NCBI RefSeq assembly: GCF_000372725.1
Contig: NW_005201381.1
Location: forward strand, 183,953-247,952
Source of the DNA: Emiliania huxleyi CCMP1516
Lineage: Eukaryota
Direction of reading: 5' to 3'
DNA length: 64,000 nucleotides
In this document: in pieces, positions 207-63,543 of the stretch
Numbering within the stretch: the first letter of the stretch is position 1
Layout of the letters: each line of letters starts with the position of its first letter
Notes under the pieces: model-generated
The model's database searches: none
What the model was told of the DNA's origin: nothing
The model's input: the letters and a program-made list of their open reading frames with translations, nothing else
Translations under genes and position numbers: made by a program

Positions 207-3018
207 ATGATGCTGTGGCTCGCGGGGGCGATCACTCCCTCGGCGTCGTTCGCTGGTAGGCCGCCTGCCCACCGCGTGGCACCGGCTCGCGCCGTGCAGC
301 GCGCGCCAGCGCCGGCGATGCGCGGCGAGCAGGCCTTCTCCTTTGGCCCTGCGGCAGCGCTGCGGACGGCAAAGCGCAAGCTCCCGCAGGTCGAGTGGCT
401 TGCGGCCGGCGAGGGCTCGGCGGAGAACAAGGTGGACATGCCGGACCACGTTGCACGCATCCTCTCGCAGCCGCACGCGCCGCAGCGCGAGGCCGAGAAC
501 GATGAGAGGACGCACCGCATCCGCACGCGCTACGAGCAGGCTGCTGCCGATGCGCAGGCGCTGCGCGGGATGCTGGTGGGGGAGGAGGATGAGAAGGCGT
601 GGTGGCGCACGCCGCGCGAGGTGCCGGCGGGTGGCCGGCCGGTGAGCAAGGACGACCCACTCACCGTGCTGGTGGCGGGTGGCGGGCTTGCCGGCCTGGT
701 GACAGCGGCGGCGTGCCACGCGGCGGGCATGCGGGTCGCGCTGTTCGAGCAGGCGTCTTCGTACGCGCCGTACGGCGGCCCCATCCAGATCCAGTCCAAT
801 GCGCTCCGCGCCATCCAGCGCATCTCCCCAGCCGTCTTTGAGGAGCTCGTCGCCGCGGGCACCGTCACCGCCGACCGCGTCTCAGGCCTCAAGATCGGGT
901 ACCGCAAGGGCAACAAGCTGGCGGGTCTGTACGACCGAGGCGACTGGCTGGTGCGGTTCGACACCATCGGCCCTGCCCTCGAGGCGGGGCTCCCTGCGAC
1001 GGTCGTGGTCGACCGGCCGGTGATTCAGCAGATTCTGGTCAAGCATGGCTTCCCCGACGGCACCGTCCGCATCAGCTCGCGCATCGAGGGGTGGGAGGAC
1101 CGCGGCGACGGCCGCGGCGTGGTTGCGACGCTCTCCGACGGCACCAAGGCGCACGCGGACGTGCTGGTCGGCGCGGACGGCGTCTGGTCCCAGATCCGCA
1201 AGCAGATGCACTCACTCGGAGAGGGCGCGGGCGGCTTCGCCGCGTCGGGCGCGGCGGGAGGTGCGCTCGACGAGGCGGAGGCGCGCAAGCTGTGAACAGC
1301 GTCTCTTCACACCTCTTGCTGTGAACAGGTGCGCTCGACGAGGCGGAGGCGCGCAAGCTGTGAACAGCGTCTCTTCACACCTCTTGCTGTGAACAGGTGC
1401 GCTCGACGAGGCGGAGGCGCGCAAGCTGTGAACAGCGTCTCTTCACACCTCTTGCTGTGAACAGGTGCGCTCGACGAGGCGGAGGCGCGCAAGCTGGCGC
1501 GCGACACCGTGCGGATCGCGGCGCAGGCGGATCGCCGCTTCTCGGGCTTCACCTGCTACGCGGCGCTGGCGCCGCACCGCGCATCAAACATCGAGGACGT
1601 CTCGTATCAAATCCTGCTCGGAGAGAAGAAGTACTTTGTGTCGACCGACGGCGGCGGCGAGCGGCAGCAGTGGTTTGCGCTCATCCGCGAGCCGGCGGGC
1701 GGCGTCGATCCGGAGCCCACGGACGAGGACCCAACGCCAAAGCTGACGCGGCTGCGCCAGGAGTTCTCGTGCAGCAGCGGCGACGCCGACGGCAACGTCT
1801 GGGACCCGTTCGCACTCGAGCTGATCGAAGCGTCCGCCGAGAGTGACATCAAGCGGCGCGCCCTCTGCGGCGGGTCGCCGGGTCGGACATGTCGAGGACG
1901 CGTCCACGACATGTCCAAGACATGTCCCGTAGGCGCGACCTCTACGATGGGGCGCCCCTCCTCGCCACTTGGGACCCGCGTCGCTGGTGGTCGCCGTGGG
2001 CAAAGGGGCCGGGCGCCCTAGATTGGGAACGGCAGGCCGCCGGTACTCGGACTCGCACCCGAGAGGGCACGGATCGAGCGTACATGTCTCCTGCTGTATT
2101 CGATGTACTCGCAGCCCTTGTCCTCGCGCGGCTCCGATCGCACTGCACGGATCTTGCTTCACGCCCTGATTGTGGTGTGTTTATGCCTCAGGCCCGTCGC
2201 GCTCTGCGGGGACGCGGCGCACCCGATGATGCCAAATTTGGGGCAGGGCGGCTGCCAATCGACCGAAGACGGCTACCGGCTGGGCGCGGAGCTTGCGACG
2301 GTGAGCCGCAGAGACCGCTCGAGAGTGCCGCCGGCTAGGTTGTGCCGTTTTGGACTGGCTTAGCCATGCCCGACCGAGACGATTTCGCGTTGGCGGGTCG
2401 CCCCCACCGAGGGGTCGCCCACGCACCCGCCGGCCCCCACCGAGGCTTTCTCTCGGAGCATGGTCGAGGGGCACGGCTCCCTGCTGGGAGGAGGGAGAGG
2501 GAGGGGGGCGAGGCGAGGGATTGAATGAGGGGGGGGGTGGGGGGATACGGCGGGGAGGGGGGCATGGAGGGGGAGAGGAAGTCCAAGCGCGAGAGGGGGC
2601 AGGGGACTGGGCGGGGGACCGCCTGCGCCCCTCGCATGCCCCGTCAGGTGAGCCACACTCGCGAGGTGCCGTCGGCGCTCGCACGCTATTCGCGCGTCCG
2701 CGTGGTGCGCACGGCGATCGTGCAGGGGTTCGCGCAGCTCGGCTCCGATCTACTCGTCGACTTCGACCTGATGATGACCATCCCGCTGCTCGGCCCTTTC
2801 TTCCTCGCCGCAACGCAGGCGCGCACCTTCGACCCACTGCGCCCGTGACGCCTCCGCGGCAGCTGCCATGCCCCTACCGCACCGCTTGCATGCCCCCACC
2901 CGCCCGCTGCATCCTCCCTCTCCTCCGTTGCCTCTCTCTCAACGCGGCCCCGCTCCTCCCTCGCCCGCAGCTCTCGATGCCGTGGATCCTGCGCTTCCTC
3001 TACACGCCCGAGTTTTAG
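207..3018 (+). CDS. ZEP1: Zeaxanthin epoxidase-like FAD monooxygenase (resembles diatom/haptophyte ZEP1); 6 exons ~207-1260, 1465-1855, 1933-2007, 2192-2300, 2648-2818, 2971-3018
   Basis: Motifs [36 protein letters not shown] and [26 protein letters not shown] splicing keeps the frame. N-terminus looks like a signal/transit peptide. Paralog assignment is from recall, not a search. Confidence 0.88.
1259..1496 (+). repeat. 68-bp tandem repeat (3.5 copies) that forms ZEP intron 1 (1261-1464)
   Basis: Unit AGGTGCGCTCGACGAGGCGGAGGCGCGCAAGCTG+TGAACAGCGTCTCTTCACACCTCTTGCTGTGAAC starts at 1259, 1327, 1395 and 1463 (last copy partial). Confidence 0.95.
2008..2191 (+). mobile_element. Introner-like intron in ZEP (184 nt)
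   Basis: GC donor; GCCGGGCGC resembles next exon start GCCCGTCGC; then CCTAGAT; internal CGAGAGGGCACGGA and CGCCCTGATTGTGGTGTGT shared with other introns. Confidence 0.65.
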
Positions 3019-4157: not shown

Positions 4158-5522
4158 CTGAGCCCTGGCTGTCAGGCTGTCAGGTGCTGTCAGGTGATCT
4201 GTCGGGCTGTCGGGCAGCTGTCAGGCACTGTCAGGTGCCTCTGTCAGACCAGCTGTCAGGTGCTGTCAGTGCTGTCGGGTGCTGTCGGGTGCATGTCTGA
4301 CAGGCGAGGGGTTCTGTAGCTGTCAGGTGCTGTCGGAGCTGTCGGGTGTTGCTGTCAGACGCTGTCGGAGCTGTCAGAGCTGTCAGGCTGCTGCTGCTGT
4401 CAGACGGTGGGCTGTTGCTGTCAGGTGCTGGGTCAGGTGGTGCTGTCGGGGTGCTGTCAGGCTGTGACACACACCAGCCACACTTATGACACTATCAAGA
4501 GGAGACCAGCAGGACTCTACTACACATACTCTAGTCTCTACTCTGCCTCCGGTCCCACCATCTTTTTCATGGTGGACGTCACCATCTTCTTGTCTGCCGC
4601 ACTGAGAGAATAGCAGAGAGGCAGGGTGGAGTGCTTCTTCAGGTACACCTTGCTGATGATCTGGTAGTTGCTGGTCCAGCGGAAGGCCTCCCCATCGTTG
4701 TCGCTCGTCAGCTTGTAGTACTTGCACGCTCTGTTCTGGTAGCGCGGGCCGTCTGGGGGGGTCCCGTCACCCTTCACCTCACGGTACCACCGGAGGATAA
4801 AGAGGCCCTTGGGGTCGTTGATGAAGACCCCGTTGCTGCGCTGACTCATGGAGAGCTGGCGCAGGTACTCTGCGCTGGAGCTGCCAGTGGCGCGGCGCGC
4901 GTCTACTGTGCCGTCGGCGACGGCCACCTGCTCAATGTTGCCGATGGCAAAGACCTTGGAGCTGTCCTCCATGGTGAAGAGCACCGCAACTGCGAAGAGA
5001 AAGAGAAGAGGGAGAGATGAGGATGCACGTCTTATGTGTGTGTGTGACAGGCGGGCAAGGGCGTGGTCACCGTCATCATCATCCATGTAGAAGTCGAGCT
5101 CCTCATCCACATCCTCGCCCCGCTGCTGATGGGACTTGATGAGCCGCTTGACGTGGAAGCGGAGCTTGCGATCCTTTGACTCCTCCTGGATGGAGACGTT
5201 GAAATCTGCCAGCAGCTTACCCTCAATGGGGCACAAGAAAGAGGCTCTACGGGGTCTGTGTACGGTCTGTGCTGCTGTCGGGCTGTCAGGCTGTCAGCGC
5301 TGCTGTCAGGCCACTGTGTGCTGTCGGGCTGTCAGGCAGCTGTCAGGCTGTCACGTTAGGGCCTGACAGCGACGGAACCCCTCGCCTGCCAGACTCTGCT
5401 GTCAGGCTGTCAGACACGTGCTGTCAGACTGTCAGAGAAAGTGCTGTCAGCGCTGTCAGGCTGTCGGGCACTGTCAGGCGCTGTCCGGGGGTTTGCTGTC
5501 AGGCTGTCAGACCAGGGCTCAG
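4158..5522. mobile_element. Non-autonomous DNA transposon, family A, complete copy
   Basis: TIR CTGAGCCCTGG...CCAGGGCTCAG; 8-bp TSD GGCTCTCG (4150-4157 and 5523-5530); dense subterminal CTGTC(A/G)G repeats; internal ORF remnant 4538-5236 (-). Confidence 0.92.
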
Positions 5523-8042: not shown

Positions 8043-8469
8043 GGGGGGGGCGTGCACCTCGATCCTGGAGCCGGGTGACGGGATGCTGTCGCGGCGGTCT
8101 CACTCACTCAGTCAGGCCCACCCACCCAGTGAGTGAGGTAGTGCGCCAGACAGACAGACCTATCTCGCATGAGCACTCTCATGGGAGCCATACTCGCATA
8201 GGGGACGCGTGCTAGCTGATGACTGTAGCCAGCTTCCCGGCCTCCCGCGTCTACCGGGAGCCTCCCGGACCATCGACCTCGGGAGCTCTCCCGCACCTTT
8301 ATGCGTTCTAAGGAATCGGTCGGCGGCCCGCTGCGGCTCTTAAAACCTGCCAGGCCGGTTAAGCCGTTAAAAGCCGCAGCGCCCCAGGGCCCACCCGCTT
8401 TTAAGCCTAGGGCGTAGGGGTATATGAGGCTGATAATGACGTCCGCAATCGCCTCGGGGGGATGGGGCC

Positions 8470-8801
8470 CTGAGCCCTGGCTGTCAGGCTGTCAGGTGCT
8501 GTCAGGTGATCGGTCGGGCTGTCGGGCAGCTGTCAGGCACTGTCAGGTGCCTCTGTCAGACCAGCTGTCAGGTGCTGTCAGTGCTGTCGGGTGCTGTCGG
8601 GTGCGTGTCTGACAGTCGAGGTGCTCTGTAGCTGTCGGGTGCTGTCGGAGCTGTCGGGTGTTGCTGTCAGACGCTGTCGGAGCTGTCGGAGCTGTCAGGC
8701 TGCTGCTGCTGTCAGACGTTGGGCTGTTGCTGTCAGGTGCTGTCAGTTGCTGTCAGGTGGTGCTGTCGGGGTGCTGTCAGGCTCTGACACACACCAGCCA
8801 C
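8470..8801. mobile_element. Solo end of family A transposon
   Basis: Starts CTGAGCCCTGGCTGTCAGG and matches 4158-4480, then diverges after ACACCAGCCAC; no second TIR seen. Confidence 0.85.
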
Positions 8802-16348: not shown

Positions 16349-19085
<2,737 letters not shown>

Positions 19086-19832: not shown

Positions 19833-22800
19833 TCAGCGCCCTGGTCTGTAGGTGCTTGTCCCCCCTCCGCCATAGCTGCCCGAAGAACGGCCCAAGGCAC
19901 CAGAGATGAGCCGCTTCGGCGCGGAGCTGAAGCGCGCCTCCATGCTGCGCGTGGCTGCCGCCGCGTCACGCGAGAACTGCGGCTGGTCGTGCTTCGAGAG
20001 CGTCGGCTGCGGGAGTATCTGCCCCCTCAGCAGCCGCGGGAGGTGTGCCTGCTTGGCGGGGGGGTCAAAGGAGACCCCCACCGTGGCGCAAGCGGGTATC
20101 GGCGGCAAGTTGTATTCCGCGCCGCCTACAGGAGCCACGGCGCAATCTCAAGACTCGCGGGGAGCCGGGGGGGGGGGGTTGGACGCGTCGCACCCGGTGG
20201 CGGCGGGAGCGCCTCTCCGGCTTGGCGGCGCGACGCCGCGCTCGCACGCACAAACCCGCCAAAACCGAGCGACTCCGCCGCAGCAGCATCCAAGCGCACC
20301 GGCGGCGCGCTGACTGGCGCCGCGGCAACGGCGGCGCAGATGGCGCCAATGGGCTGGGCGGAGGAGACAAAGAGGAGAGCGTCGCCGTGCCTGTCGCGAT
20401 CCGCCTGCAGACAACGTACCGCATGGCGATCAGAGGGGCAATTCATGGCCGTGCGCGCCCCGACGCCTCGGCTCGTTCCGCCTCCTCCGCCGTCAGCGTC
20501 GCGCGCACCGGCGCCAGCGTGGCGCGCAGCCGCGGCGCGTCGATGAACGGGAGCAGCGCGATGGCCTGCCACGCGTACTTTTTCCCGTTGAGGTCGTCGG
20601 CAAAGTCGATCGGGTAAAAGTCGATGATTGGCGAGTCGGCGTCCACCATCAGTTGCCTAGCGGGTGGTGATCAGTTGCCTAGCGGGTGGTGACGGGCGTG
20701 TCGCGGGCGCGCCATGCGGCGCCCACACAAGTGTCGTCCTCGGCTGCCGGTGCGCGGCTAATCTCGGCTAGTCTCGGCTCATCTCGGCTCATCTCGGCTA
20801 GTCTCGGCTGCCGGTACGCGGCGGGCAGCGCGTGGCCCGACGCGGGAGGGAAGACGGACATCAGCTGCTCGAAGGGGGAGAAGGCGGCTCCCTCCTCGAA
20901 GGCGCCGCCTAAGAGAGGAGGGCGGGGAGGGTGCGAAGAGAGGAGTGGCAAGGTCCCCCCTCCTCTCCCCGCCTGCGAAGTCGGCGAGGTCGACGAGGTC
21001 CGAGGCGCAGGGCGCGTAGTGGAAGGGGAAGTACCACCCCCAGTCCTGCACCCCTTGGTAGTAGTACATGAGCACCCAGCACAGCCCCTGCACGTAGTGC
21101 GCAACGACGGAGCGGCGCGCGGCCTCGTCCTGCCGCGGCATCTGGAGCTTGGACGAATAGTACCGCTCCTTCCAGTCCCTCTGGCCGTACCGGACGGTAT
21201 CCACCTGCGCATACTCCTCCGCCTAGCAGAGACATGCCGCTCTGTTGTCAGGCACAAGTCGGGAACCGTCCACCCGCCGGCCCGAAACTCGGCCGCCTGC
21301 CGCGCCTCCAGCAGCTTCTGCACCCGCGCCTTGCAATCGTCCGGCTCGGAAATGAGCAGAGATTCGCCGAGATTCGCCGAGATTCGCCGAGATTCGCGCC
21401 TTGTAGTCGTCCGGCGCGGCCGCCTCGCCGCCCTGCGCGGCAGCCGACGCGGCGGCCGACGCAGCAACGCCTGGCGGCTTCTTCTTGGCCAACCGAATCT
21501 CGACGGCGCCGTCTCCCGTGTTGGTCGAGGTGCAGCCGTGGAGTGTGGCGTACAAGTGAGCCGAAGCCTAGCAGAGAGAGGTGCGAAGACGAGATCTAGC
21601 CGCCGCGGGTCGTGGCGCGCACGTACAGGCGGGCCGTCGGCCTTGAGGAAGCCCGAGAGGCCTCTCAGCGGCAGCGGGTCGGCGGCGACGCGGCGCGCAG
21701 ACGCCGCATACGCCGCGACCGCGTCGTGCAGCTCCTGATCATCAGTCATGCATACTCAGTCCTCAATCCTTGACACGCCGCGACCGCGCCGTGCAGCTCC
21801 TGCTGCCGCCTCTCCTTGGGCGGGTAGAGGCCGCCAAAGGCGCCCGCCTCGACGGCGCCCCCGCTGGCAACCTTGCGCGCCGCCTCTGCGCGCGCGCGCC
21901 CCTCCTCGCGCCGGCGCGCGCGCTCGAAGATCTCGTCCTACTCTCGACTGCCTCTTGTGAGACCGCGGCGGCCCCTCGCCCTCTCTCTGCCTCTCGCCCG
22001 CTCGAACGGCTCGTCCTCGTACGAAGAAACCTCGCGCAGCAGCACCTCCGTGCGCGGCAAGTGCACTCGCCCTGCGTCGGTGAGGTACCCGCCAAGCTGC
22101 GGCATCAGCCGCTTGTACGCGAGGATCAGCATGTCGATCGCGCCTAGACACGAGAGTGTGGCCAGAGTGGAATAGACAGGCGCGGAATCTCGAGCCCGGC
22201 GGTGACGGCGTGGCTGTGTGTGGCGGTGTGGCGGTGTGACTGCGCGACTGTGTCCGGTGTGTGTGGCTGTCCGGTGTGTGTGGCTGTGTGTGGCGATGTG
22301 TGGTTGTGTGTGGCGCTGCGCGCTGCAGGTGTGTTGGAGCGGGTCCGGCGCGGTCTATAGTCGCGCCGTCGCGGATCTCGAGGGCAGGGATGTGCTAAGT
22401 AGTGGTTGATTAGTGGTTAATTCGTGGTTGATTAGTAGTCGCGCCGTCGCGGATCTCGAGGGCAGGGATGTGCTAAGTAGTGGTTGATTAGTGGTTAATT
22501 CGTGGTTAATTCGTGGTTGATTAGTAGTCGCGCCGTCGCGGATCTCGAGGGCGGGGATGTGCGGCAGGAAGTCGTTGCCGACGAAGAAGCAGAGAAAGAC
22601 AAAATCGTCGACCACGCGCTCGAGGTCAAAGCCGCCCGGCACGGCGCCAAACAAGTTCTCGTCCGCGCCGCCAAACTCCTTGCACAAGTACTCGCGCAGC
22701 ACCCAGATTTGCAGCATCTGCAGCTTTGGCGGGCCGATCACGGCGCCGTTGGCGCGCGCCTCTTGCTGCTTGGCCTGCGCCTTGCGGTCCAGCACCACCT

Positions 22801-41441: not shown

Positions 41442-41769
41442 AAACAGCGCCTGAACGCATGGCGTTCAGGCGGCACTTCTCTCGCGTCGGCTCCGCCGAG
41501 CGCTGCACAGAGACCATCTTCACTGACCACCAACGACAGGTGTGCGACTACGCGCTCGTCTACGCGGAGAAGAAGAACGACGGCGAAGCGCCGTACTCGG
41601 TCTCCTTCACCGCGACGCAGAGCGGCGACGTCATCGTACAGCTGCACCCGCACTCGCAGCTCGAGCGCGCCGTGCGCCACGAGCGGCAGGCGCAGGCCAC
41701 GGAGCCGCCTGCGAGCGCGAGCCCTGCGGCGCCGCCCGCCCCTGCCGCCGCGCCGCCAGCCGCGGAGCC
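41442..41769 (+). repeat. Apparently identical 328-bp copy of the 5' part of the orphan-ORF element (60113-60440)
   Basis: Constant offset of 18671 bp; no mismatch seen by eye. Confidence 0.93.
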
Positions 41770-42085
41770 ACACTCTACATCCTCTACACCCTCCCTCAGG
41801 GTTTTGGCCGCTTTGTGTATCTCGACATCTCGAGACCTCGCTCGAGAGAAGGCTGCCCGCAGGGCCCAAGTCGGGAATTGGCTTTTTTTCTTTGGTGTCA
41901 AAGCTTAGTGAGGTTAGGTAGGAAGGTGAAGAACAGTTTTCAGGCTCGGACTGGACACCAACGCGGTATGGGTGGATGCGAGACGCTGGTGGTCAGCACA
42001 AATTCTTCTTCGTGTTACCTGCCAGTGCGGGTGAACCTTCTTTTGTAGACCGCTAGGATTGAGAGCAGCCTCGCTCTCAATCCTG

Positions 42086-42832
42086 GAAGTCGAAGGATTG
42101 TGAGCAGCACTCCTCGCAATCGTAGCATCTCTGTGCGATTGTGAGCGCCTACGCTCGCAATCCTACATCTTCTAAGACTAAGAGCAGCTCCGCTCCCAAG
42201 GTGACTGGTGACGCCTACGACTACTACCAGCGCGCTCGCAATCCGAGCAAAGTCTAGGATTGCGAGCAGCAATGCTCACAATCCGAGCAACATGCCTCCG
42301 ATTGCGAGCAGTAGCGCTCGCAATCCTAGAACTTTCGCCGATTTGCGACGGCGACACCGCCCACAGTCCTACGACTTCTAGGATTGCGAGCGGGTCCCCT
42401 CGCAATCGGTGCGATCACTGTTTGGATTGTGAGGAGACCCTCCCGGCGCGCTCACTCACAAGCGCTCGCGGCTGGAGCGATTGGGAGTGCCCTCTGTGCG
42501 CCTGCTAGCAATCCTTGGATCTTGGGTACGATTGTGAGCGCCGCCGCTCATAGTCCTACAAGATGTAGGATTGCGAGCGCTACTGCTCGCAATCGGAGGC
42601 ATGTTGCTCGGATTGTGAGCATTGCTGCTCGCAATCCTAGCTAGCTAGACTTTGCTCGGATTGCGAGCGCGCTGGTAGTAGTCGTAGGCGTCACCGGTTG
42701 TCACCTTGGGAGCGGAGCTGCTCTTAGTCCTAGAAGATGTAGGATTGCGAGCGTAGGTGCTAGCAATCGTACATTACAGAGAGAGAGAGATGCTACGATT
42801 GCGAGGAGTGCTGCTCACCCTCCTTCGACTTC
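42086..42832. mobile_element. Foldback-like element with ~245-265-bp inverted arms (42086-42328 and 42566-42832)
   Basis: Arms are reverse complements with small indels, built from GCTCGCAATC/GATTGCGAGC modules. Confidence 0.8.
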
Positions 42833-42933: not shown

Positions 42934-44282
42934 CTGAGCCCTGGTCTGACAGCCTGACAGCAACCCCCGGACAGCGCCTGACAGTGCCCGACAGCCTGAC
43001 AGCGCTGACAGCACTTTCTCTGACAGTCTGACAGCACGTGTCTGACAGCCTGACAGCAGAGTCTGGCAGGCGAGGGGTTCCGTCGCTGTCAGGCCCTAAC
43101 GTGACAGCCTGACAGCTGCCTGACAGCCCGACAGCACACAGTGGCCTGACAGCAGCGCTGACAGCCTGACAGCCCGACAGCAGCACAGACCGTACACAGA
43201 CCCCGTAGAGCCTCTTTCTTGTGCCCCATTGAGGGTATAACAAAGTTACATGCAAAGACATGTGAGTGTGGTCCATGTCCATGTCCATGTAGTCATGGGA
43301 TGGTCATGGGTCTCTCTCTCAACCCTCCCGCCCGCCACCTCTGCGGACCCCTCTCTAGCACCGGCGGCTGTGCTACTACAAATGAAGCTACCAGCTAGCC
43401 TTCTGGGGCCCTACAGTCATATGCCTAGGGCGTCTGGGTGGGGGTGGCCGCCGCCGTCTGTGCCGCTGCCGCCGCCGCCGCCTGCGCCGCCATCTGCGCT
43501 CCCCAGGCGGCCGCCCCTGCCGGCGTGATCACGCCATAGGAGGGGGGCAGCTCCAGCGCAGAGTACCTGCGCCAGCTCTCCATGAGTCAGCGCAGCAACG
43601 GGGTCTTCATCAACGACCCCAAGGGCCTCTTTATCCTCCGGTGGTACCGTGAGGTGAAGGGTGACGGGACCCCCCCCCAGACGGCCCGCGCTACCAGAAC
43701 ACAACAGAGCGTGCAAGTACTACAAGCTGACGAGCGACAACGATGGGGAGGCCTTCCGCTGGACCAGCAACTACCAGATCATCAGCAAGGTGTACCTGAA
43801 GAAGCACTCCACCCTGCCTCTCTGCTATTCTCTCAGTGCCGCAGACAAGAAGATGGTGACGTCCACCATGAAAAAGATGGTGGGACCGGAGGCAGAGTAG
43901 AGGCTAGAGTATGTATGTGTAGTAGAGTCCTGCTGGTCTCCTCTTGATAGTGTCATAAGTGTGGCTGGTGTGTGTCAGAGCCTGACAGCACCCCGACAGC
44001 ACCACCTGACAGCACCTGACAGCAACAGCCCAACGTCTGACAGCAGCAGCAGCCTGACAGCTCTGACAGCTCCGACAGCGTCTGACAGCAACACCCGACA
44101 GCTCCGACAGCACCTGACAGCTACAGAACCCCTCGCCTGTCAGACATGCACCCGACAGCACCCGACAGCACTGACAGCACCTGACAGCTGGTCTGACAGA
44201 GGCACCTGACAGTGCCTGACAGCTGCCCGACAGCCCGACAGATCACCTGACAGCACCTGACAGCCTGACAGCCAGGGCTCAG
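42934..44282. mobile_element. Non-autonomous DNA transposon, family A, second complete copy (opposite orientation)
   Basis: TIR CTGAGCCCTGG; 8-bp TSD GCCGCCAG (42926-42933 and 44283-44290); same ORF tail as 4538-4880 but frameshifted. Confidence 0.92.
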
Positions 44283-44519
44283 GCCGCCAGCAGAACACGG
44301 CGCCGCGACAAGCTCTTTTCACAGCGCGAACAAGTGTGAACAGCTCCACGAATACCTTATAACACTGGTCTGATACTCCGCTCAGGTGCTCAGGGCACCC
44401 ATCTGTCCCAGGCATGCAAGTTGTACGGGTTTGTTTCTGCAGGAAGTGGAGCTGTGAAGCTGTCCACATTGTCACACTGGACCACAGGATTGAGAGCCCT
44501 GCTGCGTACCGTCGTGTGT

Positions 44520-46617
44520 ATGCCGAGCGACTCCTCGGTTGCCGTCGAGTGGGCGACTCTCCTCTCCTTGTGGCGTGAGCGTCAGCGCGCGCTCGCCTCC
44601 CACGCCGCCGAGTCGCTCAAGCTTCCCGCGCTCCCTCTGCCCAACGGTGGCGGCGACACCGCCGGCGACACTGCCGGCACGGCTGCCGCCGGCGGCTCCG
44701 TGCAACACCTGTACGCGGCGGACCCGCAGCACCTTGCCCTCGACGTGCAGGACGCGGCGACCGCCGCCGGCGACCGCGCGAGGACGTTCCACGCCCGCCT
44801 TGCCCGGCTCGATGCAGGCATCGCTGTGCTCGGCGCGGCTGCGGCCGCCGCGGCCACGGCGGCGGCAGCGGCCGGCGACGAGGGCGCCGACGCGTGGGTG
44901 GAGAGCGATGCGACGGGTGCGTGCGCCGCGCGGCCGTACGTCTCCCTCGCCGCGCGCAAGCGGTTGCGGGTGCTGGATGGTCCGGTTCCGGTGCCGCGCC
45001 CGTCGCAAGCCGCCTCTGCGGCGCGTCCGAGCGTCTCTCCCGTCGACACCCTCCGCGGCCGGTCTTGCGTCTAGGCGGCCGCGGCGGTGCAGACGCCTCT
45101 GTGGGCGGCGGCCGGCGTCGGGCCCGACCGTCTGGTCGCGGGAGACGTGCTGCACGTGCCCTTCTCGGCACGACGGATAGATAGAGAGGCGAACCAGAGG
45201 CGAAACAGCGGCGAAACAGCAGTGAGGCCGCGACGGGGACCGCGGTATGGGTAGACGCAAGGGCGCAGAGACGGTCACACTCGTGCGACACACCGACACA
45301 CAGACGAGACACTCGGCGCCGGAGGCGGTACAACTCGGAGCCTTCCACAAGCCTTCCACGAGGCCTTCTTCGAACTCGCCTGGTAGGCGCAGGAGGCGGC
45401 GGTCTGCCGCCATCTCGCCGCCGCCGCCTCGGGCGTGGCTTATCGGCCGACGATCTGGCGCGACGAGGGAAGCAGCGCCGTCACACGCCCACTTGTGGAC
45501 AGGCGCGCCCTCCGCCGCCGATTTGTCCCTCGCGCCGTCCTTGCTGTTTGGGCGGACGGCGCTGGATTGCGCGCGGTTCCTTGCGGATGAGGCGCTGCAG
45601 CGAGGGGAGGAGGAGGCGACGGGGGAGGGGGAGGGAGAGGCGATGCGGGGGGGCGAGGGAGAGGCGATACGGCGGGGGGAGGAGCAGATTGCGGCGGTGG
45701 AGGCGGCGCGCCACGCGTTGCGGTGGGCGGCGGGAGCTGGCGGCGGCGAGGGAGATATGGGGAGATATGGGGAGATATGGGGAGATGTACGGGGAGCTGG
45801 CGGCGGCGAGCGCGGCGGCGAGGGCGGCGGCGAGGGCGGCGGCGGCGGTGAGGAAGAGGCGGAGGAGGAGGCGGAGGGGGGCGAGGAGGGGCAGACGGCC
45901 GGCGGCGGCGGAAAGCGGCCTCGCGAGCGGGCGATGCTGTTCGTTGGTCGGCCATTCCTGTCCCTGTGTCTCCCGGACCTGTCCTGGCACTTTTTGCAGG
46001 CGATGCTCCTCGTCGGTCGGCCTGTTGCGCTGCGGGGCGGGGCGGGGCGGAGAGTCGGCGCGGCTGGCTTGGTGGACCAGAGGTCGTTCGGTGCTGCGGC
46101 GCTGCAGGCTCAGAGCGGCGAGCTGCGGCGCGGAGTGTACCGCACCTTTGGACCCACCTCCGTCTCCGGCAAGCCGACGGGGTGCGTGGTGGACGTGGCG
46201 CTCTCCTCCCCGAGGGGCACCGGCCTGCGGCTGGCGGTTGGCTCTGGCGAGGGCCCTCACGAGGCACTGCTCTACGACCTCCGCACTGAGGCGTGCCGCG
46301 TCCTCGGCAGCGGCGCCGGCCAGCCGCACGCGACGACGGTCTCTGCTGTCCGCTTCTCCGCGTCGGGCGAGCGGCTCCTCACGGCAGGCACACGGCGAGA
46401 CCGTACCTCGGCTACACCTCGGCTGTACCTCGGCTACACCTCGGCTGTACCTCCGCCGAGCCCGACGAGATCATCTCTCCCCACCCTCTCCCACACTCTC
46501 CGACTCTCTGACGCAGGGTACGACGGCACGGTGCGCGTCTGGTCGGCGGCCGACGGGAAGCTGAGCCGCTGCCTCGGCCACCCCCTCCCTGTGCCCTCCG
46601 CCGCCGACGCAGAGGGC

Positions 46618-57824: not shown

Positions 57825-59855
57825 CTATCGCTGCATCTCGGCGGGTGTGCGCCGGTAGCAGCCGCCGCCACCCTCGTCGAGGATGGCGTCAAGGAGCGCG
57901 GCGGCCATCTTGCGCCCTCCCTCCGGCGACGGCTCGACCCGCTGCACGTAGTCTCTCGGGTCGCTGCCGTCGAGCGCCTCGAAGAGCGGGAATGGCACAA
58001 CCTCCACGCCCGGGATGGCGACGCGCCGCGTGGCGAGGCTGAAGAGGGCGCGGATGGCCGCCTGCTCTCGGGTGATCTCGAGTGATCTCGGACGATCTCG
58101 AGTGATCTCGGGCGGTCTCGGGCGGTCTTGGGCGTTCTCGAGCGATCTCGGGCGATCTGGAGTGATCTCGCGCGCGGGCGGCTGCCTGCAGCCGCGCGGG
58201 CGAGCTGTCGTAGCAGACCATCTGGCAGCGCTTTGAGGAGGCAGTCAGGACACGAGTTCACTACTTGGTGGACCAGTGGACTGTGCGGTGTCGGCCGTCT
58301 CGCCACATGTTTGCGTGCTAGCCCCACGTGCGTGTGTGCTGAATGTCCCTCGCCCTGGGCGTGATGCGCGTGCGTGCCCCTGCCCGAGGTGAGACTGTAC
58401 ACTACAGGTCGCCTTGAGGAAGCAGTCCGCCCAGGAGCCGCGCCCGTGCACGTCCAAAAAGTAGATCATGCAGACGACCACCCTTGCGGGCCGCCGGCCT
58501 AATCTCGGGTAATCTCGGCTAATCTCGCCGGCTGGCACTGCACCTCGGTCCCATCGAGGGTGATCTCGGGTGATCTCGGGTGATCTCGGGTGATCTCGGC
58601 TAATCTCGGCCGGCGAGCAGTCGCTCGATGTAGTTTTGGACGCGGTTGCCAAAGAGGTCGACAAGGTAGCCGAGGCCGGGCGGGCAGCCGCAAGGCGAGA
58701 CGAGGCAACCTGCGGGCAGGCAAGCTGTTGAGTAGTCCATAGTCGATGGCGGGAGGGAGTGGGCCTGCGGGTCAGACTGTGGGGGAGACTAGCTGGCTGG
58801 TTCATTGAGGACGGGTCGCATGTACTCAACCCTTTTTCACGCACGCGGGCCGCCCACGACCGACTGTGAGTCTCTCGGGGCAGGCTCCGGGACGGCTCCG
58901 GGCAGGGCCTGGGAAGGGTCTCGGGGATCCCGGGTGGACTTCTGACTGTCGTTGCTGCCTGTCCAATCTCGACGGTCTGTCTTGTGCGTCTGGGCTCGGG
59001 GTTGTGTTTTTGCGGGAACAGACAAGGGCGTGAGGCGATGTGTGCCCTGGCAGGCCGCAGCAGGCGCAGCCAAGGAGGGGGGGCCCATAGGGTGATCTCG
59101 GGCGATCTCGGGCGATCTCGCATTGCAGCCTGGCAGGCCGCAGCAGGCGCAGCCAGGGTCGACCCGCAGGTTGGGTGGGCAGGCGCAGGCGCACTGCTCT
59201 ATGCAGACCTGTGGCACGAGATCGGAGGGGAGATCACGCGAGATCGGCCGAGAGATATGCCGAGAGAGCCCGAAGATGCAATGTACCTCATGCGGGTGGG
59301 TGTGTCGCCCCGGTGTCCTGCGCAGCGTGCCCCGCGCAATGTCTACTCCCAGACCTGCGGCGTGCAGCAGGCGACCAGCGAGAGGTTGAGCGCTGTGAAG
59401 AGCAGCGGCTCAAGCGCGATGTCGTTGCCGCCAACCGACACGACCAGGACGTCGTCCGGGCCGATGGCACTCGCGATCAGCCGGTCCTGCGGCGTGAGCC
59501 GGCCGCACGCGCGCGTGTTGAGCGAGGTGGCCTCGACCGCGGTGTTGAGGCAGAAGAGGCGGCCGCCATGCCCCCGCCGAACCAGCTCGTCGTTGAGCCA
59601 GTAGCACACGTCGGTCTTCATCCTGCCCGGCGCGAGGACAGCCTCGTACCCGTTGGTCGCCGCCGCCCACGAGTCGAACCAAAACTTGTTGTCGAGCGAA
59701 GAGTCGCCTGCGAGGAAGATGCAGGAGCGGCGGCTGCCGCTCCTGCCTCCGCGCAGCGACGCGTGCACGCGCCGCAGGAAGTTTGGGTTGTGACCGTAGT
59801 ACTCAGAGTAGTACTCGCCGGCGCCAACCAGCGGCGTGGTGGTCGAGGGCGACAT
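57825..59855 (-). CDS. SGNH/GDSL hydrolase-like protein with Cys-rich insert, spliced
   Basis: FLAGDSSLDN (block I), VVSVGGNDIAL (block III), C-terminal DYVQRVEPSPEGGRKMA. Confidence 0.72.
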
Positions 59856-60129
59856 ATACACAAACTTGGTCGGGGACCGCCAAGCTTCACGCCCAACCTC
59901 GGCCGAGCGGAGCAGCAGCGGGCGCGGCACGAGGTGCGCTCGACGCTCGAGGCCACTCGCGTGCCCTGAGCGGCCTTGCCGGCAACGCTGGGCCCCGTAC
60001 TGCCTTTTGGCACGACAAGGGCGCAGACTGGCGCGGACTGGCACACGGACGGGCACACACACCGGCACACCAAAAGAATCGCACCAGCACACACCGAGTT
60101 TGAGAGAGCTTCAAACAGCGCCTGAACGC

Positions 60130-61056
60130 ATGGCGTTCAGGCGGCACTTCTCTCGCGTCGGCTCCGCCGAGCGCTGCACAGAGACCATCTTCACTGACCA
60201 CCAACGACAGGTGTGCGACTACGCGCTCGTCTACGCGGAGAAGAAGAACGACGGCGAAGCGCCGTACTCGGTCTCCTTCACCGCGACGCAGAGCGGCGAC
60301 GTCATCGTACAGCTGCACCCGCACTCGCAGCTCGAGCGCGCCGTGCGCCACGAGCGGCAGGCGCAGGCCACGGAGCCGCCTGCGAGCGCGAGCCCTGCGG
60401 CGCCGCCCGCCCCTGCCGCCGCGCCGCCAGCCGCGGAGCCGGCGCCCAAGACGTACGCCGCCGCAGCCGCATCGCAGCCGCAGGGTGCCACCGCGGGTGG
60501 CCAGCCCGCCGCGCCTGCGGGCCCGGCCGCCGCCGCGCGCGTGCCGCCGCCGCCCAGCGGCGGCGGAGTGCGCGGCTGCTCCTTCACTGTCCCTAACCCG
60601 GGCAGGAAGCGTGGGCAGCAGCAGCGCGGCAAGGGCCGCGGTGCCAGGGGCCGTGCCGATGCTGGACCCCGTCTCGTTGACAAGAACGCGCTGTCCGCGC
60701 GCGGCAGCGGGCCCTCGCGCCAGTCGCGCTCGCCGTCGCCCGACTCTCCGCCCGCCAAGCGGGCCGCCTCCGCTGACTCGTCTGGCTATGAAACCGATAC
60801 GCCGGACGAGGTGCAGCAGGAGGCGGTCCGCAGGGTATGCGGCGCGCTCGGCATGAGGGAGCAGTTCGAGGCGGCGATGGCGGCGGGCGAGCTGCTCGAG
60901 ATGCTCGAGAGCTTGCCGCGAGGGGCGGTCGAGGCCTCTGTCCGACAGATGCGGGGTTACAACCGCACGGGCGAGTGGCCAGAGCCCATTCTCACCAGCC
61001 CTGCCCCGCAGCGCGGCCGCTCGCCAAGCCCCGTCGATGAGTGGTCAGATGGTTAG
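60130..61056 (+). CDS. Orphan 308-aa intronless ORF, possibly ORF1/gag-like of a mobile element
   Basis: 5' third duplicated at 41459; KTYAAAA motif and RG-rich basic patch; followed by a (TATT)n tail at ~61274-61292. Confidence 0.5.
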   Translation: MAFRRHFSRVGSAERCTETIFTDHQRQVCDYALVYAEKKNDGEAPYSVSFTATQSGDVIVQLHPHSQLERAVRHERQAQATEPPASASPAAPPAPAAAPPAAEPAPKTYAAAAASQPQGATAGGQPAAPAGPAAAARVPPPPSGGGVRGCSFTVPNPGRKRGQQQRGKGRGARGRADAGPRLVDKNALSARGSGPSRQSRSPSPDSPPAKRAASADSSGYETDTPDEVQQEAVRRVCGALGMREQFEAAMAAGELLEMLESLPRGAVEASVRQMRGYNRTGEWPEPILTSPAPQRGRSPSPVDEWSDG

Positions 61057-61804
61057 TGCCCGAGAGCGAGGGGTCCGGGGGGGAGCACAAACATAGGACG
61101 CCCAGCCTTGCCCTCGTGCCGCCGAGTGCGTATCCTATGCGAGAGAGATCCCCTGTGCCCTGTGCCCAGCCCTCTCCGCGCGGCGATGCGCCCTCCCCCC
61201 TCGCTTTTGCAAAATCCTGCAAAGGTGGGGACGTGTCTGTCCTCGACCCAGCCCTAGCTTGGGATGTCCGTTGTATTTATTTATTTATTTATAGAGATTT
61301 TTAGAAGCCAACAAGAAATGTGTGACAGAAGTGATTTGGGCTCGGCAGCTTCGAGCTTGTCGACTACCGGCCGGAGCCGGAGTCGGAACCGTAGCCGAGA
61401 TGGTCGTCGAGGGTGTCGAATAAATATGTCATTCGCCTCGCTAGTAGAGCCGGTGCCGCATGAGTTTGAAAGGTCGAGGCCGAGGAGAGCGATGAGTCAG
61501 ACGAGAGGATGAAACAGCAGGAGAGAGAACGAGGATGAGAGTGGGAACTGGGAGAACGCGAGGTGGCATGAAGGTCGCTGCGAGAATTGGTGAGAAACTG
61601 CGAAGAGATAGGAAGAGGCGGACGCCCGAGGGTGGGCGACGAGGGTGGGCGAGATAAAGATTTTTAATACCAAACAACTCTAACACTCACGTTTTTTGTG
61701 GGCGACGGCTAGCACGTAGCACCACACTTCTGTCGAAGAACACTTGTGGCGGCTGTATATTCTAACTCTCTAAGGCATCTGCGATCTCAGCTTCATCAAA
61801 CGCT

Positions 61805-62037
61805 TCCAGGTATACCCGGGGTTTTCCAGGTACCCGCAAAATACCCGGTATTTTGCCGACCGAGCGAGTCGGCTGATTTTGGGCCCAAACCAGCCTCAGA
61901 CTCGGTCGGCTCAGAGCCCGTGAAATTGACGATTTTCGCGGAGTTTCCTCGGGAAACTAGAGAGGAAACGAGAGGGTGCTGTAGAGAAACACGGAAAGGA
62001 AACGAGACGGGGTGAGCGAGGAAACATGGGTACAGCC
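61805..62037. mobile_element. Right-hand part of a MITE-like element (family C)
   Basis: ~180 bp matching 63365-63543; ends GGAAACATGGGTACAGCC followed by TAA. Confidence 0.7.
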
Positions 62038-63123: not shown

Positions 63124-63543
63124 GGCCTGTACCCATGTTTCCGGAAACCAAAAAGGAAACGAGAGGGTCCCCAGCACTTTTCGTTTCCGGAAATTTCCAC
63201 AGGGAACGCCAGAGGGTGTTTGGAGAGAGAGATTGGTGCTCCATTCTAGGCTCCATTCTGGCAACTCTCGAGTTTCCCTGTGTCTGAGAGCTGGTCTGGG
63301 CCAAAATCTGAGAGAGAGAGAATCTGAGGCGAAACCGAGGAAACCGGCAAAATACCGGGTATTTTCCAGGTATACCCGGGGTTTTCCAGGTACCCGCAAA
63401 ATACCCGGTATTTTGCCGACCGAGCGAGTCGGCTGATTTTGGGCCCAAACCAGCCTCAGACTCGGTCGGCTCAGAGCCCGTGAAATTGACGATTTTCGCG
63501 GAGTTTCCTCGGGAAACTAGAGAGGAAACGAGAGGGTGCTGTA
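63124..63543. mobile_element. Left-hand part of MITE-like family C; a short fragment also at ~54577-54612
   Basis: Begins GGCCTGTACCCATGTTTCC; 63127-63142 is the reverse complement of 62020-62035. Confidence 0.7.

What the first reader, a model, noticed from the sequence alone, without database searches (positions are those of the whole stretch)
1259..1496. Very young intron built from exon duplication plus filler (3 x 68 bp)
Seen: ZEP intron 1 (1261-1464, 204 nt) is three identical units. Each holds a copy of the next exon's first ~32 nt plus a filler (TGAACAGCGTCTCTTCACACCTCTTGCTGTGAACAG) with an internal TGTGAA/TTCACA inversion. The exonic AG|GT serves as donor, and there are three equivalent CAG|GT acceptors; only the last avoids an in-frame TGA. 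Known: tandem duplication of an AGGT site is a proposed, rarely observed route to intron gain. Inference: intron birth caught before any divergence.
Basis: partly seen in the sequence, partly recalled or inferred. Interest (0 to 1): 0.7.

Follow-up and report, generated by a model that had tools for sequence, protein, structure and literature searches.

The report
Tiny mobile element that builds introns
In the bloom-forming alga Emiliania huxleyi, a piece of DNA under 40 letters long sits at many unrelated places, each time between two copies of about 18-37 letters of the gene it landed in, and the whole insert is likely cut out as a new intron, which would be an overlooked and possibly common way of making introns.

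Summary
The 3 x 68 bp repeat is real and is intron 1 (1261-1464) of a zeaxanthin-epoxidase-family gene. The spliced protein equals an annotated E. huxleyi protein, and one poly(A) RNA contig skips exactly 204 nt. The filler is not one-off repair DNA. It is a dispersed element of about 39 nt, high-copy in 4 of 4 genomic runs and seen at 11 distinct sites. At all 10 measurable sites it is flanked by an 18-37 bp target duplication (insert 63-76 nt). The duplication supplies the donor (G|GT, G|GC or G|GA) and the element the CAG acceptor. The insertion is shared by all samples examined, so it is not a private fresh mutation; unit number may vary. The same build with other fillers recurs: ZEP introns 2 and 4 start with decayed copies of the next exon, and a NOC1/MAK21 gene has seven such candidate introns in a row. 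Automated introner catalogues list 37- and 70-nt E. huxleyi families with unresolved or 2-4 bp duplications, probably including this element; I found no description of the long duplication. The mobilising enzyme was not found.

The parts
207..1260 (+). ZEP-family gene, exon 1 (coding part)
   Evidence: FAD_binding_3 hit; the model equals P0002; RNA contigs
1261..1464 (+). Intron 1, GT-AG, 204 nt = three units of (copy of next exon start + mobile element)
   Evidence: run X16 contig skips exactly 204 nt with 236 and 213 nt on the two sides
1259..1292 (+). Target duplication copy 1 (34 bp); supplies the AG|GT donor
1290..1328 (+). Mobile element F, copy 1 (about 39 nt). It has 11-nt quasi-palindromic direct repeats at both ends, a pyrimidine-rich middle and a CAG acceptor; its ends overlap the duplication by microhomology
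   Evidence: high depth and varied loose ends in 4 of 4 genomic runs; 11 metagenome loci
1327..1360 (+). Target duplication copy 2; CAG|GT is an acceptor and a regenerated donor
1358..1396 (+). Element F, copy 2
1395..1428 (+). Target duplication copy 3
1426..1464 (+). Element F, copy 3; carries the productive acceptor at 1464
1465..1855 (+). Exon 2; 1465-1496 is the original of the duplicated stretch
1856..1932 (+). Intron 2, GC-AG, 77 nt: decayed 24-nt copy of exon 3 start (19 of 24 identical) plus an 11-mer-family filler that is also multi-copy
   Evidence: joint in 4 of 4 RNA runs; depth 5,469 against about 45-50 in X1; filler similar to those of L005, L004 and window 17279
2008..2191 (+). 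Intron 3, GC-AG; weak, non-significant likeness to the next exon start
   Evidence: 8 of 120 null positions score as high
2301..2647 (+). Intron 4, GT-AG; starts with a decayed copy (about 30 nt, gapped) of exon 5 start
   Evidence: 0 of 80 null positions score as high
2819..2970 (+). Intron 5, GC-AG; no copy of the next exon
2971..3018 (+). Last coding exon, to the stop codon

Best explanation
The filler is a short dispersed element found at many unrelated sites, each flanked by a long duplication of the host sequence, and it likely inserts by copy-and-paste into staggered cuts about 18-37 bp apart, so that the duplicated exon start serves as 5' splice site, the element as 3' splice site, and the whole insert is likely removed as a new intron. 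SHOWN: multi-copy element; target duplication at 10 of 10 measurable sites; exact 204-nt removal at ZEP in one RNA contig; restored, collinear proteins at three conserved genes (ZEP, NOC1/MAK21, WDR70). INFERRED: (1) gap filling after a staggered cut makes the duplication; (2) E. huxleyi's tolerance of GT, GC and GA donors lets many inserts survive as introns, while inserts whose duplication spans an existing splice site are absorbed into that intron; (3) the three ZEP units arose afterwards by slippage or unequal exchange between the identical 34-bp copies, a process that can also delete the intron precisely; (4) each internal CAG|GT would allow stepwise re-splicing to the same mRNA; (5) with age the intronic copy decays, as in ZEP introns 2 and 4. 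For the chemistry I favour a reverse-transcriptase (target-primed) route, about 0.4. End-joining capture of an abundant short DNA is about 0.3, a Replitron-like HUH route about 0.15, and a DDE MITE under 0.1.
For:: in runs X1, X2, X5 and X8 (four studies), 699-962 contigs were laid per run. Depth over the repeat bins was 7,573-116,983 against 13-130 on the single-copy flanks. 194-215 contigs per run were only partly laid, and loose ends at the element's borders showed agreement of about 0.45-0.6, meaning many different flanks; 11 metagenome loci give 11 distinct insertion sites counting ZEP; 10 are measurable, with duplications of 18-37 bp and inserts of 63-76 nt, and some elements carry point variants; the exact 204-nt skip in X16 and a matching 11-nt loose end in X14; removing seven such introns from L004 gives one frame that aligns without gaps to P0123 over 99 aa (72.7%); P0123 matches MAK21 at E 1.3e-14; removing duplication plus element (71 nt, AG|GA...CAG) from L009 puts the junction in register with 14 WDR70-like homologues, whereas removing only the 37-nt GT-AG core gives a stop. 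GC, GT and GA donors are reported for E. huxleyi (PMC4028052, passages).
Against: No empty allele was seen for any site, so insertion is inferred from the duplication and from homologous proteins. Splicing is shown by RNA only at ZEP, by one contig of 4 runs, and that joined form is identical to an empty allele. X11 shows a break at the site (retention or DNA), and X13 does not cover it. No transposase or reverse transcriptase was found in 141 window ORFs, and no genome was available. With a strict +/-3 nt rule, splice signals at duplication borders were enriched overall (11 of 24, against 2-6 for control dinucleotides). They were not enriched among non-F events (6 of 17, against up to 5) or window-only events (1 of 9). 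Contig depth is no copy number, as the tool warns. The untidy end lies at whichever end is buried in the intron (sense copies, and the antisense copy L006), which may reflect selection and weakens the case for target-primed insertion.
Confidence: 0.85

Rival explanations
1. One-off tandem duplication or break repair with locally made filler.
For: The duplication starts at AG|GT, and both junctions show microhomology.
Against: The same filler sits at 10 other unrelated sites and is high-copy in 4 of 4 genomic runs. It has no local source: no 12-mer of it occurs elsewhere in the window.
Confidence: 0.03
2. The element is a self-contained 37-nt GT-AG mini-intron and the duplications stay in the mRNA. 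With three units the retained 93 nt would be in frame and add 31 residues.
For: 1292-1328 begins GT and ends AG, and removing the three cores leaves an open frame. Catalogues built on annotated gene models list 37-nt GT-AG families in E. huxleyi.
Against: No such joint is listed in 4 of 4 RNA runs, while the 204-nt skip is. The site lies in a near-invariant stretch with no insertion among 120 homologues. At L009 the 37-nt removal gives a stop.
Confidence: 0.05
3. The long duplications come from a host process that makes duplication-plus-filler inserts, and F is only one passenger template among several, not a transposon in its own right.
For: At least four other filler types show the same build and a similar total length (20 of 24 events have periods of 63-77 nt). 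F is very short and has no coding partner in hand.
Against: F keeps near-fixed ends and terminal repeats across sites, as a defined element would. This rival shares the intron-forming step with the best explanation and differs only in what does the copying.
Confidence: 0.3
4. Assembly or adapter artefact, or a pseudogene.
For: Three identical units could be mis-counted. L002 and L008 show one unit, and the element-to-exon junction contig has 0.9-2 times, not 3 times, the flank depth in three runs.
Against: Contigs break at 1288 and 1467 in 4 of 4 runs, as a duplicated 34-mer requires. Multi-unit arrays with non-identical units occur at L004 and at window 22358-22562. The gene is expressed and spliced.
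Confidence: 0.02

Closest known systems
[quoted passage not shown]
   Same: Multi-copy element, donor recruited from the duplication, GT/GC/GA donors, likely use in both orientations.
   Different: Reported duplications are 3-9 bp and fixed per family. Here they are 18-37 bp and variable and make up about half of the intron, so introns of one family share only their 3' half.
E. huxleyi introner families in automated catalogues (Gozashti 2022 Suppl. Table 6: five families of mean length 70, 70, 37, 37 and 37 nt, 653 copies; Gozashti 2025 PMC12130899 dataset: fam4/fam3 with 45 members and fam24; supplement rows seen)
   Same: Same species. The 37-nt length and a called 4-nt repeat at intron positions 5-8 and at the end fit the GT...AG core of F; fam24 is noted as having 10-bp terminal direct repeats.
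   Different: Duplications are given as '?', 'N', 2 or 4 bp, and the class as Unknown or LTR. No sequences were in the rows seen, so identity with F is inferred, not tested.
Tandem genomic duplication of AGGT (Rogers model) and intron gain at staggered breaks in Daphnia (PMC3443670 and PMC4202315, passages)
   Same: The intron begins with a copy of the adjacent exon; staggered-cut geometry.
   Different: Daphnia exon-intron repeats are 4-12 bp and the inserts are not described there as one repeated family. The Rogers model has no foreign insert.
Replitron-1 of Chlamydomonas (PMC10288648, passages and section 9 part 1)
   Same: Short terminal direct repeats, variable-length target duplication, extra bases at one end.
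   Different: Replitrons are 0.9-3.6 kb with an HUH transposase partner and are under-represented in genes (PMC9977147, passages). None was found here.
Non-LTR retroelements with long variable duplications (Dualen, R9; PMC9977147, passages)
   Same: Variable, long target duplication and very short truncated inserts.
   Different: F has no poly(A) tail and near-fixed ends, and no reverse transcriptase partner was identified.

Membership tests
Introner (intron-generating mobile element) | Near-identical copies at many unrelated loci | tested here: met
Introner (intron-generating mobile element) | Insert is removed by splicing and leaves the coding sequence intact | tested here: met
   RNA contig at ZEP; protein collinearity at L004 and L009; other sites have no RNA test
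Introner (intron-generating mobile element) | Splice sites carried by the element or co-opted from the target | tested here: met
   donor in the duplication and CAG in the element at ZEP, L003a, L004, L005, L007 and L009b
Introner (intron-generating mobile element) | Empty orthologous site in a strain or sister species | tested here: inconclusive
   none listed in 4 genomic runs or 2 contigs; sister species were not available
DDE MITE-type introner | Short target duplication of fixed length (2-11 bp; upper bound recalled) | tested here: not met
   18-37 bp and variable
DDE MITE-type introner | Terminal inverted repeats | tested here: inconclusive
   imperfect 14-nt pairing in the L001 form (z -2.40, 3 of 200 shuffles) but not in the window form (z -0.21)
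Non-LTR/SINE-like (target-primed) | Variable-length target duplication with junction microhomology | tested here: met
Non-LTR/SINE-like (target-primed) | Poly(A) or simple-repeat tail, or structural-RNA head | tested here: not met
   no tail in 17 copies; no Rfam match at E up to 1
Non-LTR/SINE-like (target-primed) | Autonomous reverse-transcriptase partner sharing the end | not testable with these tools
   no genome held; none in 141 window ORFs
Replitron | Short terminal direct repeats, extra bases at one end, variable duplication | tested here: met
   11-nt repeat; 0-8 extra bases
Replitron | HUH (Rep) transposase partner | not testable with these tools
   no genome held
Rogers-type tandem genomic duplication | Intron made only of duplicated exon sequence | tested here: not met
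   half of each unit is a dispersed element

The most novel reading that the evidence does not exclude
E. huxleyi runs a general intron factory. One process inserts 30-55 nt fillers from several families with 20-40 bp target duplications, makes introns of about 70 nt whose first half is the next exon's start, and accounts for a large share of the species' introns, of its intronic 10-11-nt repeats and of its GC/GA donors. The introns stay precisely reversible and expandable until the copy decays, which gives a datable series from birth to maturity.
Probability: 0.5. Interest if true: 0.88.

Novelty: new variant of a known kind. Interest (0 to 1): 0.74.

Why it matters
The source of most new introns is unknown, and introner screens look for similarity along whole introns with short duplications. 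Here half of each new intron is locus-specific exon copy, so such screens would miss or mis-bound the family, and gene predictors would mis-annotate it. Divergence between the intronic copy and its exon dates each intron from a single genome. That makes rates of gain, precise loss and splice-site maturation directly testable in a globally important alga with public genomes and transcriptomes.

Tried and rejected
No genome was held, so copy number and an autonomous partner could not be sought. The 24-nt core had no exact match in viral contigs or prokaryote genomes, and Rfam gave nothing. A profile of the element found only the three ZEP copies in the window at E below 0.01. Folding of the whole repeat is no better than shuffles. 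A likeness of the filler's middle to a sequencing adapter end (recalled, from no call) was rejected, because the element has natural variants, flanking duplications and many sites. P0122 was not used as evidence of splicing: it carries residues of the intronic copies and looks like a collapsed assembly. A 32-aa exon of L004 alone found only armadillo design proteins. L002 has a cluster of mismatches and an indel and is weak support. Whether the gene is the fucoxanthin enzyme ZEP1 was not settled: the gene numbers were not in the supplements of PMC9499517. Skips of 68 or 136 nt cannot be seen in contigs, so use of acceptors 1328 and 1396 is untested. Run X13 has no cover across the site. Look-ups of earlier findings by place and sequence were blank. 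Literature searches that found no description of long exon duplications in E. huxleyi introns: plus term searches inside PMC10290126, PMC13508280 and PMC12480563. The 2013 genome paper, files 13-14 of PMC12130899, the cut part of the PMC9860276 supplement and bioRxiv supplements were not seen and may bear on novelty.

Full report
Observation. The repeat is as described: 1259-1496, three and a half identical 68-bp units. It interrupts a flavin monooxygenase gene whose homologues are named zeaxanthin epoxidase by some sources. Removing 1261-1464 and four further introns (1856-1932 GC, 2008-2191 GC, 2301-2647 GT, 2819-2970 GC) gives 615 residues, identical to P0002, an annotated Emiliania huxleyi protein, and one residue away from P0003. 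The site lies in a near-invariant stretch: G352 and A353 are kept in 119 of 121 rows, and the other two rows are gaps. Acceptors 1328 and 1396 leave an in-frame TGA.

Real and spliced. In 4 of 4 genomic runs from four studies (kind guessed or not on record), single-copy contigs end at 1288 and restart at 1467. That is where a duplicated 34-mer forces a break, and no joint across the insert is listed. These runs differ from the window and from each other by point changes, so the insert is shared, not private. Two metagenome contigs carry one unit (L002, L008), which may be real or collapsed. The element-to-exon junction contig has about 0.9-2 times the flank depth in X1, X5 and X8, a weak hint of fewer than three units. 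Of four RNA runs, X16 has a contig that skips exactly 204 nt, X14 has a matching 11-nt loose end, X11 breaks at the site and X13 does not cover it. Introns 2-5 are joined in 4 of 4. The X16 form would also fit an empty allele, but none is seen in DNA and that run is poly(A) with the other introns removed.

The filler is a dispersed element. Over the repeat, depth is 7,573-116,983 against 13-130 on the flanks. About 200 contigs per run are only partly laid, and their loose ends begin at the filler's borders with unrelated sequences. Depth is no copy number, but this points to at least about a hundred sites (my estimate). An exact 24-nt scan gave 11 metagenome loci, which hold 14 copies at 11 distinct sites counting ZEP (L006 = L011; L002 = L008 = ZEP). 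One site is cut by its contig start. At the other 10 the element is flanked by a duplication of 18-37 bp (about 34, 28, 29, 27, 24, 34, 37, 24, 35 and 18), and the insert is 63-76 nt. The copies range from identical to three mismatches. Junctions show microhomology and 0-8 extra bases. L004 has two non-identical units in tandem, and L003 and L009 have two separate inserts each. In L006 the candidate splice sites lie on the strand opposite to the element, whose near-palindromic ends give CAG either way; that protein was not identified.

Protein-level tests. At L009, removing duplication plus element (71 nt, AG|GA...CAG) aligns the junction with 14 WDR70-like homologues, whereas removing only the 37-nt GT-AG core gives a stop. 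At L004, removing seven candidate introns (132, 73, 69, 73, 93, 73 and 77 nt, each with a G|GT or G|GC donor, a YAG acceptor and a copy of the next exon's start) gives one frame. It matches P0123 without gaps over 99 residues across three of them, and P0123 matches yeast MAK21. Only the first of the seven contains F.

The build is general. ZEP introns 2 and 4, both RNA-confirmed, begin with decayed copies of the next exon (score 28; 0 of 120 and 0 of 80 null positions reach it). Intron 3 is not significant (8 of 120) and intron 5 shows none. A scan of the window and 8 loci for duplication-filler-duplication with periods of 55-100 found 24 events. Nine were in the window, against 0 and 1 in two shuffles. 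Twenty of 24 have periods of 63-77 (13 of 17 without F); the bin was chosen after seeing the data. A splice-anchored scan gave 99 hits per 100,000 pairs for AG against 27-38 for four control dinucleotides, but those hits are redundant and partly seeded. Against my reading: under a strict border rule, splice signals were not enriched in non-F events (6 of 17, against up to 5) or window-only events (1 of 9). By eye, several of these duplications span an existing donor or acceptor and seem absorbed into older introns. Fillers group into F, an 11-mer repeat family, an AT-rich family and others.

Mechanism. A staggered cut with an insert, then gap filling, explains the duplication. Selection would keep inserts whose duplication starts at G|GT, G|GC or G|GA, donors reported for this species (PMC4028052, passages). 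Exchange between identical copies would add units or delete the intron exactly. Variable long duplications argue against a DDE transposase and fit target-primed reverse transcription (PMC9977147, passages), end-joining capture, or Replitron-1-like insertion (PMC10288648, passages and section 9 part 1). I favour the first at about 0.4; no enzyme was found.

Comparison. Introners that co-opt the donor from a duplication are known, with 3-9 bp duplications (PMC9860276, passages; bioRxiv 2020.10.14.339549, parts 1-2 of 4). Supplement rows list five E. huxleyi families of 37 or 70 nt with duplications '?' or 'N'. A later set lists a 45-member family with a 4-nt repeat at positions that fit F's own ends. 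F is therefore probably catalogued but wrongly bounded; this is inference, since no sequences were seen. Daphnia's exon-intron repeats are 4-12 bp (PMC4202315, passages), and the tandem duplication model has no insert (PMC3443670, passages). The searches named under Tried and rejected found no account of long exon copies in E. huxleyi introns. The 2013 genome paper was not seen; I recall that it noted intronic 10-11-nt repeats.

Verdict. The feature is real, young and spliced. It is best filed as an introner of a new variant, and it may be one visible case of a genome-wide mode of intron birth.

Noticed in passing
window 22358-22562 (- strand, XRN exonuclease gene): A second multi-unit case: three copies of a 38-nt gene stretch separated by two AT-rich 11-mer fillers (units of 78 and 89 nt). 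It seems absorbed into an existing intron.
   Followed up: partly
window 17244-17347 (- strand, thiolase gene): A perfect 35-bp duplication around three 11-mers. The duplication appears to include the donor, so the insert would lie inside the intron.
   Followed up: partly
window 18121-18226, 21325-21419, 21710-21802, 45927-46022, 59041-59158: Further duplication-plus-filler inserts of 65-83 nt; at least three have a plausible donor at the copy's start and YAG at the filler's end.
   Followed up: partly
L004 (reverse strand, about 180-1340): NOC1/MAK21-like gene with seven consecutive candidate introns of this build in about 1.1 kb; several fillers are AT-rich (26-41% GC) and rich in stop codons.
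   Followed up: yes
L009 and L007: F-derived candidate introns with GA donors, in a WDR70-like gene and in what I recall as a family-1 glycoside hydrolase (no call).
   Followed up: partly
window 4158-5493, 8463-8801, 42962-44289: A repeated element of about 1.3 kb with dense CTGTCAG-type subterminal repeats; two 99-100% identical inverted copies and a partial one; no Pfam hit.
   Followed up: no
window 42057-42822: Array of palindromic units of about 21-42 nt with internal inversions.
   Followed up: no
window 41442-41741 and 60113-60412; 61804-61983 and 63364-63543: Pairs of identical direct repeats of 300 and 180 nt.
   Followed up: no
window 1981-2220 and 2278-2676: Introns 3 and 4 are covered by contigs in RNA run X11 and, wholly or in part, X13 (retention or DNA); high intron retention is reported for this species.
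   Followed up: no
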